From IMG/VR virus record IMGVR_UViG_2529293241_000014: a stretch of DNA of 20,195 bases. One strand, given 5' to 3'. The notes below the pieces were generated by a model, which had not been told where the DNA came from, did no database searches, and saw nothing but the letters and a program-made list of their open reading frames with translations. Positions 12,080-14,765 of the stretch are shown here, one piece after another. Every line of letters starts with the position of its first letter. The stretch's first letter is position 1. The translations under genes were made by a program, and so were the position numbers. The DNA comes from a virus (taxonomy: Duplodnaviria > Heunggongvirae > Uroviricota > Caudoviricetes).

Positions 12080-13120
12080 TTAAGTTCTCCGTGCGATGGG
12101 CCTGATTGGGGCTGGTATCTTTTTCTCTTTTGGTTTTTTGATGTCGCGCATCATTTTTGCGAAGCGGCGCATCATGTATGCATAGCGAACGGCGGATAGC
12201 ACGTCGTCGTTAAGCTTGACGATTTTCCCGTTTTCATCACGGTGATAGAGGCGGAACTCCTCAAAGAATGGCTCACAGGTATTGAATACTTTGAAGCGAC
12301 CATCGAGCATCATGTCGCGCAATTCAGTGATGCCTGGCTCAACAGCGTTACCGCCATCAGGCCATGTCGCATGCTCCTGCAACATCATAAATCCAGCGTC
12401 TGCATACTGCCCTTTGAGCTGCTCACCGCCGCCCTTCTCGTGCTGGTTTCCATCATGAGGCCATGCGGTTGGCACTTTATGCGCCCATGATTTAACGGCT
12501 CCCCACGCCTGAACGGCTGTTTTTTCTTTCGCCTTCCACACGCGTGAAACGTAGATTGTGTCTGCCTCCTTATCCCACCAAAGCTGAACTTGCGCCTGTG
12601 GGTGATCCCATCCGAAATCCATCCCGCCAATTACGTAGAAGTGATCAGGACACTCGAACGGCTGACACTTAATCGTCTCTTCCGGTATCTGGAAGATTCG
12701 ACCACTACCCATCGTAGGAATACCGCGAGCACGCGCCTCTCTCTCATGCTCGGGATATGATGCGATGATTTGCTCTTTCTGCTCGTCGGTATAGTGCTCA
12801 GCGTCATAGATGGTCATGTTGACCACTTTCTGCGACTTGCTGGGGTTCTTCAGGAACTTGGTAACAACGTCAGACATCCCCATCAGCGGGGTAAACGTCA
12901 GAATTGAGAATTGCCCGTATTTGTTGGTACGGGTAAGACCTTCGCCATAAATGCTGTATGGTGGCTCTTCGTCAAACCACACGCCGTGGATTGTGTCACC
13001 CTGCCAGCGAGCACGGCCTTGCGAGTATGGCTTGAAGTAGCAGATTGAAATGCCATCTTCAACGCCATCAGCCGTGTGATGCTTAACCAGAAGGTGATCA
13101 ACAAGGTTCGGAAAGAAAGG
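12080..13120 (-). pseudogene. Large terminase subunit, 5'-truncated by IS911 (3' about 346 codons retained)
   Basis: The minus-strand frame is open from the IS911 end at 13120 through the stop at 12080. The retained part begins ...PFFPNLVDHLLVKHH..., includes a Walker-B-like VWFDEEP and the C-terminal nuclease region (GGMDFGWDHP...). No Walker A or start codon is present; the frame runs straight into the IS911 IRL. Confidence 0.85.
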
Positions 13121-13192
13121 TGAAGTGGCACACTGAATTTGGCCACCTGAACAGAGGTGATATGCTCACCTCAGAACAACACAGGTGCTCCA

Positions 13193-13495
13193 ATGAAAAA
13201 AAGAAATTTTAGCGCAGAGTTTAAACGCGAATCCGCTCAACTGGTTGTTGACCAGAAATACACGGTGGCAGATGCCGCCAAAGCTATGGATGTTGGCCTT
13301 TCCACAATGACAAGATGGGTCAAACAACTGCGTGATGAGCGTCAGGGCAAAACACCAAAAGCCTCCCCCATTACCCCGGAACAAATTGAAATCCGTGAGC
13401 TCAGGAAAAAGCTACAACGCATTGAAATGGAGAATGAAATATTAAAAAAGGCTACCGCGCTCTTGATGTCAGACTCCCTGAACAGTTCTCGATAA
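13193..13495 (+). CDS. IS911 OrfA (transposase N-terminal protein)
   Basis: 100-aa [52 protein letters not shown]...; the A AAA AAG frameshift heptamer lies at 13444-13450 near its 3' end. Confidence 0.95.
13444..13450 (+). other. Programmed -1 ribosomal frameshift site (A AAA AAG) of IS911 giving the OrfAB transposase
   Basis: Heptamer AAAAAAG sits in the orfA frame as TTA AAA AAG where orfA and orfB overlap. This is established IS911 biology and the motif is seen directly. The equivalent site is present in copy 2 on the minus strand. Confidence 0.8.
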
Positions 13496-13521
13496 TCGGG
13501 AAACTCAGAGCGCATTATCCT

Positions 13522-14361
13522 GTGGTCACACTCTGCCATGTGTTCGGGGTTCATCGCAGCAGCTACAGATACTGGAAAAACCGTCCTGAAAAACCAGACG
13601 GCAGACGGGCTGTATTACGCAGTCAGGTACTTGAGCTACATGGCATCAGCCACGGTTCGGCCGGAGCAAGAAGCATCGCCACAATGGCAACCCGGAGAGG
13701 CTACCAGATGGGACGCTGGCTTGCTGGCAGGCTCATGAAAGAGCTGGGGCTGGTCAGCTGTCAGCAGCCGACTCACCGGTATAAACGTGGTGGTCATGAA
13801 CATGTTGCTATCCCTAACTACCTTGAAAGGCAGTTCGCCGTGACCGAGCCAAATCAGGTGTGGTGCGGTGATGTGACCTATATCTGGACGGGTAAGCGCT
13901 GGGCGTACCTCGCCGTTGTTCTCGACCTGTTCGCAAGAAAACCAGTGGGCTGGGCCATGTCGTTCTCGCCGGACAGCAGGCTCACCATGAAAGCGCTGGA
14001 AATGGCATGGGAAACCCGTGGTAAGCCCGGCGGGGTGATGTTCCACAGCGATCAGGGCAGTCATTATACGAGCAGGCAGTTCCGGCAGTTATTGTGGCGA
14101 TACCAGATCAGACAGAGTATGAGCCGGCGCGGAAACTGCTGGGATAACAGCCCAATGGAACGCTTCTTCAGGAGTCTGAAGAACGAATGGATGCCGGTGG
14201 TGGGTTACGTAAGCTTCAGCGAGGCAGCTCACGCCATAACGGACTATATCGTTGGATATTACAGTGCACTAAGACCGCACGAATATAACGGTGGGTTACC
14301 CCCAAACGAATCGGAAAATCGATACTGGAAAAACTCTAACTCGGTGGCCAGTTTTTGTTGA
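13522..14361 (+). CDS. IS911 OrfB (DDE transposase catalytic domain; normally expressed as an OrfAB fusion)
   Basis: Track ORF of 279 aa with DDE-type integrase-core motifs (WCGDVTYIW..., [10 protein letters not shown]...). The true 5' end is upstream in the -1 frame relative to orfA; the listed start is the first in-frame start codon only. Confidence 0.9.
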
Positions 14362-14369
14362 CCACTTCA

Positions 14370-14765
14370 AATACACTGAGCGATTACGCTGTATTGGTCC
14401 CTGAGAGACTTGAGGCAATCTTGGACCGAGCCGCTCAACGCGCAGGTCATGAGGATATTAGTGAGCTATTGGGCTGCACTGTATGCAGCTATGCGGGCGA
14501 TGATACAGGTATCTATCTCCTGCCTAAGCGGTTCGCTTCTATCTCTTTCAGGTCAACTAAAGACGCTAAGACGGTAGATGTCAAAGTGACCCGAAATAGT
14601 AACACTGCTGGGTATGACCTTGAGTTAATCAGTGTGGTCGATGTGTTGGCTACTGGTTCCGTTAAGGTGAAAGCAGGTGAGTTTGACGTTGAGAAAGACG
14701 CCTCTTTCCCGTTGATACATGTTATTCGGTTTACTACCCCCAGAGTAACTATAAACCCTGAGTGA
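14370..14765 (+). pseudogene. Orphan 3' fragment (about 132 codons) of an unknown gene, fused to the IS911 copy 1 IRR
   Basis: The frame is open from inside the IS through to the TGA at 14763-14765 and contains no ATG. Protein-like composition (...LGCTVCSYAGDDTGIYLLPKRF...KVTRNSNTAGYDLELISVVDVLATGSVKVKAGEFDVEKD...). I do not recognise the family. Confidence 0.35.

What the first reader, a model, noticed from the sequence alone, without database searches (positions are those of the whole stretch)
12080..14400. Large terminase gene cut by IS911 with no target duplication: a recombinant junction that disables packaging
The terminase frame runs uninterrupted from its stop at 12080 up to the first base of IS911 at 13121, keeping Walker-B-like and nuclease regions but no Walker A or start codon. 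The 3 bp flanking this copy differ (AGG versus AAT), whereas copy 2 has a clean AGA/AGA duplication. Across the element lies an unrelated, oppositely oriented gene fragment rather than the terminase 5' end. That is the signature of IS-mediated rearrangement rather than simple insertion. The prophage cannot package DNA, yet every downstream virion gene still looks intact.
Basis: partly seen in the sequence, partly recalled or inferred. Interest (0 to 1): 0.6.

Follow-up and report, generated by a model that had tools for sequence, protein, structure and literature searches.

The report
IS911 scar truncating a Shigella prophage terminase
The cut terminase gene is real, but it is an old and ordinary insertion-sequence scar in a Shigella flexneri prophage leftover, shared by many sequenced strains, and the missing gene half seems lost rather than moved.

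Summary
A P22-type large terminase gene (12080-13120, minus strand) keeps codons 154-499 of 499 and abuts the first base of IS911 at 13121. The flanks differ (AGG/AAT). The second IS911 copy (17324-18572) has a clean AGA/AGA duplication.

The window is Shigella flexneri chromosome. The terminase|IS911 junction is identical in about 25 independent assemblies, so it is neither an assembly error nor strain-specific.

The "prophage" is a 12.65-kb internal piece of a P22-like virion operon with IS elements at both ends. Its last gene is also truncated, and no small terminase, tailspike, lysis, regulatory or integration genes accompany it.

Right of IS911 lies the end of a tRNA-Gly-targeting island, then a lysis cassette 99-99.7% identical to lambda-like phages.

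The predicted reciprocal product is not: beyond IS2 lie type VI secretion genes and dnaQ, and no terminase-5'/IS911 junction turned up.

Sister strains show at least five states of this locus. Two are tip-exact collapses of the window's inverted IS911 pair to one copy, in either orientation.

This is routine IS-driven prophage decay in Shigella, so interest is low.

The parts
1..381 (-). Left part of an IS3-family element. Its terminus TGAACCGCCCC lies at 381 and its 108-aa orfA at 1-327. By recollection it resembles IS629. It is nested inside the next element.
382..465 (-). An 84-nt end fragment of a second IS3-family element. Its terminus TGAGGTAGCC (IS600-like by recollection) abuts and truncates the injection-protein gene.
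   Evidence: homology to phage APC_JM3.2 stops at window 466
453..2183 (-). gp16-like injection/transglycosylase gene, truncated at its 3' end. It encodes 576 aa, the last 4 codons and the stop coming from the IS. The homologous phage gene is 911 aa.
2184..12079 (-). Ten or eleven full-length P22-like virion genes: gp20, gp7, gp14-like, tail needle with knob, gp10, gp4, a small ORF, coat, scaffold and portal (9914-12079). Lengths equal those in intact relatives.
12080..13120 (-). 5'-truncated large terminase gene, codons 154-499 of 499. The Walker A P-loop and the start codon are lost. The rest of the ATPase domain and the nuclease domain are kept.
13121..14369 (+). IS911 copy A (1249 bp), with unequal flanks AGG (13118-13120) and AAT (14370-14372). 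This is the recombinant junction. Its IRL|terminase junction is shared by S. flexneri genomes.
14370..14765 (+). 3' fragment (131 codons) of a 373-aa hypothetical gene that lies at the right end of a tRNA-Gly-integrating island in E. coli.
14766..15229 (+). Right end of that island, ending in the 3' ~23 nt of a phage-borne tRNA-Gly gene (15207-15229). This is the attR of an island that had integrated into a prophage tRNA gene.
   Evidence: ARAGORN finds no complete tRNA
15230..17323 (+). Lysis cassette of a lambda-like prophage. It holds a P21-type holin (15520-15735), a DUF1327/YdfR gene (15740-16054), a lysozyme (16110-16643) and an Rz gene ending at 17107. It is 99-99.7% identical to lambda-like phages and prophages.
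17324..18572 (-). IS911 copy B, a simple insertion with a 3-bp duplication AGA (17321-17323 and 18573-18575). It differs from copy A by one base.
18578..18865 (+). 95-aa hypothetical ORF that follows Rz in both lambda-like and P22-like prophages. Copy B sits 5 nt upstream of its ATG. Some gene callers extend this ORF to 172 aa, in which case copy B interrupts it.
18866..18910 (+). 45-nt spacer whose last 8 nt (GCTTATAC) match the lambda-like context, not the P22-like one.
18911..20195 (-). IS2, 1331 bp in sister genomes, running off the window. Its flanks TATAC/TACAC are unequal, so it marks another recombinant junction. Beyond it lie type VI secretion genes.

Best explanation
The window is Shigella flexneri chromosome. 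The terminase|IS911 boundary is an old rearrangement scar made with IS911, not an insertion.

One IS911 copy (A) joins two unrelated phage leftovers:
- A 12.65-kb internal piece of a P22-like virion operon, running from terminase codon 154 to a 3'-truncated gp16-like gene.
- The lysis cassette of a lambda-like prophage that had an integrative island sitting in its tRNA-Gly gene.

The event was either recombination between two IS911 copies (one in the terminase gene, one in the island gene) or an IS911-adjacent deletion. I cannot tell which. It removed terminase codons 1-153, the small terminase gene and everything upstream, and these are most likely lost from the genome.

Shown:
- The junction anatomy.
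- The sharing of the junction across strains.
- The absence of the missing half next to IS2.
- The polymorphism on the IRR side of copy A.

Inferred:
- That two different prophages were fused (probability about 0.6), rather than one P22-like prophage being inverted internally and then trimmed at IS2 (about 0.2).
- That the window's two-copy arrangement is the parent of the single-copy arrangements seen in other strains. Those equal the window minus exactly 4203 bp between the identical 8-bp IS911 tips.
For: - **Anatomy.** Searches give the junction structure. The AGG/AAT flanks contrast with AGA/AGA at copy B and a single AGA at empty sites.
- **Source and reality.** The exact truncated terminase ORF and the identical ...gaaagaaagg|TGAAGTGG junction occur in about 25 S. 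flexneri assemblies, many of them complete. They include AE005674.2, CP026788.1, CP026765.1, CP182556.1 and CP055138.1.
- **Fragment status.** Homology to intact P22-like phages runs only over 466-13120, and the gp16-like gene is cut by an IS. Past that IS comes psiF-phoA. Past IS2 come type VI secretion genes and dnaQ-rnhA.
- **The IRR flank of copy A differs between strains**:
  - island gene (the window's form)
  - lysozyme at window 16251, in strains without copy B
  - the outer flank of copy B
- **Single-copy forms.** They carry either the A allele in the A orientation or the B alleles in the B orientation. Both are flanked by AGG and AGA.
- **Origin of the right-hand block.** It is 99-99.7% identical, from the tRNA-Gly 3' end to 18910, to lambda-like phages. 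P22-like relatives share only Rz and the 95-aa ORF at ~95% and diverge 8 nt before IS2.
- **No reciprocal product.** Searches found none, and the DNA test with a positive control was negative.
Against: - The order and orientation of the right-hand block (lysis genes, 95-aa ORF, spacer) is exactly what an inversion of the region upstream of the terminase in a single P22-like prophage would give. A natural P22-like prophage has Rz, the 95-aa ORF, small genes, small terminase and large terminase in one line.
- The case for a second prophage rests on high identity to lambda-like phages and on only 8 nt plus one SNP at the IS2 edge. Lambdoid phages are mosaic.
- I could not scan a whole S. flexneri genome for terminase 5' DNA. 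The protein look-ups depend on gene calling, and the DNA scan needed an exact 21-mer and covered only two genomes with this locus.
- Some S. flexneri drafts do contain the terminase 5' part (P0047, P0048, P0052). I read these as a second, intact phage, because two of them run straight across the breakpoint, but I could not inspect the contigs.
Confidence: 0.8

Rival explanations
1. Two inverted IS911 copies inside one P22-like prophage, one in the terminase gene and one in an island upstream of the lysis genes, recombined and inverted the DNA between them. The terminase 5' part and the small terminase gene then lie further along on the plus strand, ending at a second IS911 joined to the island gene's 5' part.
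For: The gene order fits. The lysis cassette and 95-aa ORF are inverted relative to the terminase, and natural P22-like prophages have Rz, the 95-aa ORF, small genes, small terminase and large terminase in one line. Unequal flanks at copy A are expected under this model.
Against: - Immediately after the 95-aa ORF comes IS2 with unequal flanks, then type VI secretion genes and dnaQ, in every genome examined.
- The last 8 nt before IS2 follow lambda-like, not P22-like, relatives.
- The whole block is 99-99.7% identical to lambda-like phages. Five P22-like relatives examined carry a different holin and lysozyme and no tRNAs.
- No ...WKKSP* fragment is on record for S. flexneri, and the predicted junction 21-mer is absent from two complete genomes that have the locus.
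Confidence: 0.15
2. Simple transposition of IS911 into an intact terminase gene, with the apparent mismatch due to mutation of the duplicated triplet.
For: IS911 does insert into P22-like phage genomes. Phage Sf6 carries one in a nin gene (PMC5630979). Copy B in this window is such an insertion.
Against: The DNA right of copy A is not terminase at all. The intact continuation AGACTTCTTCC... and the whole 459-nt 5' part are absent from the window and from ±10 kb in sister genomes. The flanks differ at 2 of 3 bases.
Confidence: 0.01
3. Assembly artefact: an IS911 repeat wrongly joined two contigs.
For: IS911 is present in many copies in Shigella (PMC7373316). One draft contig (L013) has an odd IS911 outer flank.
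Against: The same base-exact junction is present in about 25 independent assemblies, including many complete chromosomes from different projects. The window's full two-copy arrangement recurs in L005, L011 and L037.
Confidence: 0.01

Closest known systems
IS-driven genome and prophage decay in Shigella (IS1, IS2, IS4, IS600 and IS911 expansions; PMC7373316)
   Same: The same organism and the same IS families (IS911 and IS2, plus elements resembling IS600 and IS629). Genes are cut at IS ends, deletions and rearrangements occur between IS copies, and there is strain-to-strain variation at IS sites.
   Different: Nothing essential. This is one specific locus of that process. I did not find this locus and its five structural states described in the papers I could read.
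IS911 simple insertion in the P22-like Shigella phage Sf6 (nin gene 54) and its loss by deletion (PMC5630979)
   Same: IS911 inside a P22-like phage genome of S. flexneri, with deletions of variable extent that start at or include the IS.
   Different: In Sf6 the IS is a plain insertion in a viable phage. Here copy A joins unrelated DNAs, and the phage is reduced to a virion-gene fragment.
Classical IS-adjacent deletions and recombination between IS copies (textbook IS biology; my own knowledge)
   Same: One IS end stays fixed while the DNA at the other end is replaced. There is no target duplication across the IS. Strains form a nested series of end points (island gene, lysozyme, the copy B site, and on the other side a cut at the tail-needle end of the virion cluster, just past that gene).
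   Different: IS911 moves by copy-out/paste-in through a circle (PMC2909936), for which adjacent deletions are less well documented than for IS1. The mechanism here is not established.
Precise and nearly precise excision of Tn10/Tn5: RecA-independent deletion between short direct repeats associated with long inverted IS repeats (my own knowledge)
   Same: An inverted pair of IS copies flanking a segment collapses by loss of the segment plus IS sequence. The end points lie in short direct repeats, here the 8-bp TGAAGTGG tips shared by both IS911 ends.
   Different: Here one whole IS copy survives, in either orientation. The repeats are the IS tips themselves, not the target duplication. No experiment shows the mechanism.

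Membership tests
IS911 (IS3 family) | About 1250 bp with TG...CA tips and imperfect terminal inverted repeats, and near-identity to reference IS911 | tested here: met
   Both copies are 1249 bp with tips TGAAGTGG...CCACTTCA. They are 99.1% identical over their full length to elements that RefSeq annotates as IS911.
IS911 (IS3 family) | Two overlapping ORFs (orfA HTH, orfB DDE/rve) with a slippery A AAA AAG site | tested here: met
   orfA is at 13193-13495 and orfB at 13522-14361. Both match the NCBIfam IS3-family transposase model, orfA below the curated cut-off and orfB above it. The motif TTAAAAAAGG lies at ~13443-13452.
Simple IS911 insertion | A 3-bp direct target duplication, and flanks that are contiguous in an uninterrupted relative | tested here: not met
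   Copy A has AGG versus AAT, with terminase on the left and an island gene on the right. Copy B meets both criteria.
Composite transposon (IS911-segment-IS911) inserted as a unit | Identical short duplication at the two outer ends, and outer flanks contiguous in a relative | tested here: not met
   The outer flanks are AGG (13118-13120) and AGA (18573-18575). The outer flanks are a terminase gene and the 95-aa ORF region, which are unrelated. The inner segment is naturally contiguous with the right outer flank.
P22-type large terminase (Pfam Terminase_6N + Terminase_6C) | Complete N-terminal ATPase domain with the Walker A P-loop, plus the C-terminal RNaseH-like nuclease domain | tested here: not met
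   Terminase_6N matches only from profile position 73 of 215. The P-loop AGNQLGKS lies in the missing 153 residues. Terminase_6C is complete. This is a gene fragment, not a functional member.
Complete (inducible) P22-like prophage | Integrase, repressor and early region, its own lysis genes, small terminase, full virion set including tailspike, and att sites | tested here: not met
   Only 466-13120 is P22-like. It is bounded by IS elements and then by psiF-phoA on one side, and by IS911, a lambda-like block, IS2 and type VI secretion genes on the other. No small terminase or tailspike lies within ±10 kb.
Inversion between two IS911 copies with both products retained | A reciprocal junction elsewhere: terminase 5' part + CCT | IS911 | ATT + island gene 5' part | tested here: inconclusive
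   - The reciprocal junction is not adjacent.
- No matching protein fragment is on record for S. flexneri.
- The 21-mer is absent from a genome set that includes two genomes with this locus.
- A whole-genome scan of a strain with the window's arrangement was not possible with these tools.

The most novel reading that the evidence does not exclude
The window preserves the parent state of a small rearrangement series: an inverted IS911 pair around 2954 bp. Independent S. flexneri lineages have collapsed this pair to a single IS911 in two mirror-image ways, keeping copy A or keeping copy B. Each time the cut is exactly at the IS tips and the outer flanks are left untouched. If transposase makes these tip-exact collapses, for example by one IS911 end being exchanged for the end of a neighbouring copy, rather than by rare slippage between the 8-bp identical tips, this would be an undescribed IS911 reaction that removes inverted IS pairs from genomes.
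Probability: 0.12. Interest if true: 0.4.

Novelty: already known. Interest (0 to 1): 0.15.

Why it matters
It matters little beyond bookkeeping.

The result shows that a seemingly puzzling "disabled but otherwise intact prophage" is a fixed, IS-bounded operon fragment of the kind that fills Shigella genomes. Annotation pipelines and prophage finders should not count it as a prophage, nor its 300-aa ORF as a terminase.

The one mildly useful by-product is a natural series of at least five structural states at one locus, with a single-base marker that tells the two IS911 copies apart. It could serve as a lineage marker for S. flexneri. It could also serve as a test bed for how inverted IS pairs are resolved.

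Tried and rejected
1. **Inversion between the window's own two IS911 copies.** Flipping 14370-17323 would put the lysis genes in line with the terminase. However, it does not restore matching triplets (AGG/TCT and ATT/AGA). Copy B has its own AGA/AGA duplication, and the 95-aa ORF beyond B is also on the plus strand. B is therefore not an inversion end point.

2. **Search for the terminase 5' half.**
   - A protein search with residues 1-154 returned only frameshifted or contig-end fragments.
   - S. flexneri members of that cluster end at or run across the breakpoint. I read them as a second intact phage causing assembly forks.
   - The exact 154-aa S. flexneri variant is not on record.

3. 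**Search for the island gene's 5' half.** S. flexneri has a diverged paralogous copy that runs uninterrupted across the breakpoint, and an N-terminal fragment ending at residue 185. Neither is the reciprocal piece.

4. **Exact-pattern scan for the predicted reciprocal junction in species-representative genomes.** It gave 0 hits. The positive control with the window's own junction gave 2 genomes.

5. **Is the right-hand block P22-like?** Only Rz and the 95-aa ORF match P22-like phages, at ~94-95%. The best full-length matches are lambda-like.

6. **tRNA scan of the window.** It found none. The tRNA-Gly piece is only a 3' stub.

7. **Papers.** The S. flexneri 5b genome paper does not mention this locus. 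Two IS911 target-choice papers were not held.

8. **Domestication of the virion genes.** I consider this unlikely. Sister strains show a split portal, a shortened coat gene, truncated gp20 and gp14-like genes, and one deletion of everything from the terminase to gp10.
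Full report
**1. The observation**

The minus-strand frame is open from the stop codon at 12080-12082 up to 13120. It encodes 346 residues that match residues 154-499 of an intact 499-aa large terminase from an E. coli P22-like prophage, with two substitutions.

Pfam sees Terminase_6N only from profile position 73 of 215, together with a complete Terminase_6C nuclease domain. The P-loop (AGNQLGKS) and the start codon lie in the 153 missing codons. 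The VWFDEE motif is retained.

At 13121 the sequence switches to TGAAGTGGCACAC..., the left end of a 1249-bp element. That element is 99.1% identical to elements annotated as IS911 in RefSeq. Its flanks are AGG and AAT.

A second copy lies inverted at 17324-18572, with AGA on both sides. Genomes without that copy have a single AGA at the site. Copy B is therefore a plain insertion that made the 3-bp duplication, and copy A is not.

In intact relatives the terminase continues ...GAAAGAAAGG|AGACTTCTTCC. Neither that sequence nor any of the 459-nt 5' part is present in the window.

One correction: the two copies differ at one base, IS position 200. It is T at 13320 in copy A and G at 18373 in copy B.

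**2. What the window is**

The exact 300-aa truncated terminase ORF is on record in Shigella flexneri genomes, among them AE005674.2. There it is deposited as "putative terminase large subunit", AAN41877.1. The window is 100% identical to L011 over 2080-20195 and to several complete S. flexneri chromosomes over 1-12183.

The layout on the plus strand is as follows.

| Coordinates | Content |
|---|---|
| 1-465 | Two nested IS3-family ends |
| 466-13120 | The only P22-like DNA |
| 13121-14369 | IS911 copy A |
| 14370-15229 | Right end of an integrative island: the last ~125-131 codons of a 373-aa hypothetical gene, then the 3' ~23 nt of a tRNA-Gly gene |
| 15230-17323 | P21-type holin, DUF1327/YdfR, lysozyme, Rz |
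| 17324-18572 | IS911 copy B |
| 18578-18865 | 95-aa ORF |
| 18911 to the window end | IS2 |

The P22-like piece holds ten or eleven full-length virion genes whose lengths equal those in intact relatives. Its last gene (453-2183, gp16-like) is cut. The homologous gene of phage APC_JM3.2 is 911 aa, against 572 phage-derived codons here, and the ORF ends four codons into the IS.

In sister genomes psiF-phoA follows that IS. Type VI secretion genes and then dnaQ-rnhA follow IS2.

So there is no prophage in any functional sense. What remains is an operon fragment with an IS at each end. It lacks a small terminase, tailspike, lysis genes of its own, and regulatory and integration genes.

**3. The junction is real, shared and old, and its other side varies**

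In about 25 independent assemblies the sequence ...gaaagaaagg|TGAAGTGG is base-identical. The arrangement right of it differs between strains.

| Form | Arrangement | Loci |
|---|---|---|
| II (the window) | terminase' \| A> \| island' + lysis \| <B \| 95-aa ORF \| IS2 | L005, L011, L037 |
| III | The IRR of copy A abuts lysozyme at window 16251; no copy B; a single AGA | L004, L007, L010 |
| I | One IS911 in the A orientation with the A allele; flanks AGG and AGACGATGG | L006, L008, L009, L012, L026-L028 |
| IV | One IS911 in the B orientation with the B alleles (G200, A728); same two flanks | L029, L030, L032, L034, L035 |
| V | Form I with a further deletion on the IRL side that removes the terminase through gp10 | L033 |

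Form I equals the window minus 14370-18572. Form IV equals the window minus 13121-17323. Each loss is 4203 bp, and the end points lie in the 8-bp tips (TGAAGTGG / CCACTTCA) that are identical at both IS911 ends.

The inner segment is naturally contiguous with the DNA right of copy B. The two-copy form must therefore be the parent of the single-copy forms. The window preserves that parent state.

All differences between strains right of copy B lie inside IS2.

**4.

It predicted the terminase 5' part and the small terminase gene beyond IS2, ending at an IS911 joined to the island gene's 5' part.

The gene order is compatible in principle. A natural P22-like prophage (E. coli 160-11H1) has Rz, the 95-aa ORF, small genes, small terminase and large terminase in one line. 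In the window that block is inverted relative to the terminase.

The predictions nevertheless fail where I could test them.

- **Beyond IS2.** Type VI secretion genes lie there, and IS2 has unequal flanks (TATAC/TACAC).
- **Terminase 5' fragments.**
  - A terminase-5'/IS911 junction would encode a 154-aa product ending WKKSP*.
  - The only such entry is a partial Salmonella protein, and the S. flexneri variant is not on record.
  - S. flexneri fragments of the 5' part either stop at the breakpoint at a contig end or run straight across it (P0047, P0048, P0052). That is what an extra intact phage plus this remnant would produce in short-read assemblies.
- **Junction DNA.** The predicted 21-mer has no match in the species-representative genome set. 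The window's own junction finds two complete genomes there.
- **Island gene 5' part.** S. flexneri fragments of the island gene belong to a diverged second copy, or end at residue 185, not 248.
- **Lambda-like origin of the right-hand block.**
  - From the tRNA-Gly stub to 18910 the block is 99-99.7% identical to lambda-like phages and prophages (PEC41, HS13-1, PhiR47_1). In those it is followed by DUF1441 and a GpA-type terminase.
  - After the shared ...GATAATG the window reads GCTTATAC, as in the lambda-like genomes. All four P22-like genomes read AAACC....

I therefore favour fusion of two different prophage remnants at IS911 (about 0.6) over an internal inversion of one P22-like prophage followed by loss at IS2 (about 0.2). 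Neither is proven.

**5. Mechanism**

Shown:
- Copy A sits at a junction without a target duplication.
- One of its ends is constant across the species, while the other has at least three different partners.
- In one strain the constant end has also been eroded.

Inferred:
- The original event was either homologous recombination between two IS911 copies (one in the terminase gene, one in the island gene) or an IS911-adjacent deletion.
- Form III arose by a further adjacent deletion of 14370-16250.
- Forms I and IV arose by loss of the segment plus one copy.

For Forms I and IV the simplest sequence-based account is slippage between the identical 8-bp tips. Homologous recombination between inverted copies can only invert the segment, not delete it. 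A transposase-mediated route is possible but untested.

IS911 moves through a circle in which the ends are joined by 3-4 bp of former flank (PMC2909936). A strand transfer with that 3-bp offset would remove the AGG or AGA triplet, and both triplets are retained.

**6. Comparison with what is known**

This is a textbook case of IS-driven decay in Shigella. IS1, IS2, IS4, IS600 and IS911 have expanded there and cause gene interruption, deletions and rearrangements with much strain-to-strain variation (PMC7373316).

IS911 is also known inside the P22-like Shigella phage Sf6, where deletions of varying extent remove it (PMC5630979).

Membership tests:
- The element is IS911.
- Copy A fails the test for a simple insertion, while copy B passes it.
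- The A-segment-B unit fails the test for a transposed composite.
- The terminase fails the test for a complete enzyme.
- The region fails the test for a prophage.

**7. Verdict**

The kind of feature is already known, and the sequence itself sits in long-published genomes. The only mildly new item is the five-state series with mirror-image, tip-exact collapses of the inverted IS911 pair. Interest is low.

Noticed in passing
window 14370-15229 (attR stub 15207-15229): An integrative island that normally sits at a chromosomal tRNA-Gly in E. coli (L003) had integrated into the tRNA-Gly gene of a lambda-like prophage's tRNA cluster, just upstream of the holin. Only its right end and the 3' ~23 nt of the phage tRNA survive. 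The island's 373-aa gene has no Pfam or NCBIfam match. One source names a relative 'DUF4043 domain-containing'.
   Followed up: partly
window 382-465 and 1-381: The gp16-like injection gene is cut at its 3' end by an 84-nt IS end (TGAGGTAGCC..., IS600-like by recollection). That end is itself interrupted by another IS3-family element (TGAACCGCCCC..., IS629-like by recollection). The phage fragment is thus IS-bounded on both sides.
   Followed up: partly
window 18906-18910 and L011 beyond IS2: IS2 (1331 bp) has flanks TATAC and TACAC, which match at 4 of 5 positions. It separates phage DNA from a type VI secretion gene, so it is a second recombinant junction, or a mutated duplication.
   Followed up: partly
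window 13320 versus 18373: The two IS911 copies differ by one base, which changes OrfA residue Val to Gly (TRWVKQL versus TRWGKQL). This marker, with position 728 in some strains, shows which copy survives in single-copy strains.
   Followed up: yes
L030 (CP054913.1) 2477-5995: In one S. flexneri genome the single IS911 at this locus is 3519 bp long, because a ~2.27-kb insert encoding a group II intron reverse transcriptase (RVT_1, GIIM) sits inside it.
   Followed up: no
L033 (CP007037.1) ~4747: One strain has lost everything from the terminase fragment to gp10. The IRL of the IS911 now abuts ...ttactcaatccttatctg, next to the tail-needle gene. The 'constant' end of copy A has therefore also been eroded in some lineages.
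   Followed up: partly
L013 (AFGZ01000004.1) 1-15: A draft contig with the copy-B-retaining arrangement has an unrelated 15-nt outer flank (cggacggtcagtacc) instead of the 95-aa ORF flank. This is either a further rearrangement or a contig-end artefact.
   Followed up: no
proteins P0047, P0048, P0052 (S. flexneri draft contigs of ~21-24 kb): Some S. flexneri strains carry the terminase 5' part with a D-to-G variant. In two cases it runs across the breakpoint. This suggests a second, intact P22-like phage whose 3' half is similar enough to this remnant to break short-read assemblies exactly at the IS911 junction.
   Followed up: partly
L004, L007, L010, L013, L021: The virion genes decay independently in sister strains. 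The portal is split into 156 + 558 aa, gp20 is shortened to 365 aa, the coat gene to 392 aa and the gp14-like gene to 107 aa, and gp7 is not called in one strain. This argues against selection to keep the module.
   Followed up: partly
window 18573-18580: Copy B lies 5 nt upstream of the ATG of the 95-aa ORF as RefSeq annotates it in E. coli. Other gene callers extend that ORF to 172 aa. Whether B interrupts a gene or only separates it from its upstream signals depends on the annotation.
   Followed up: no
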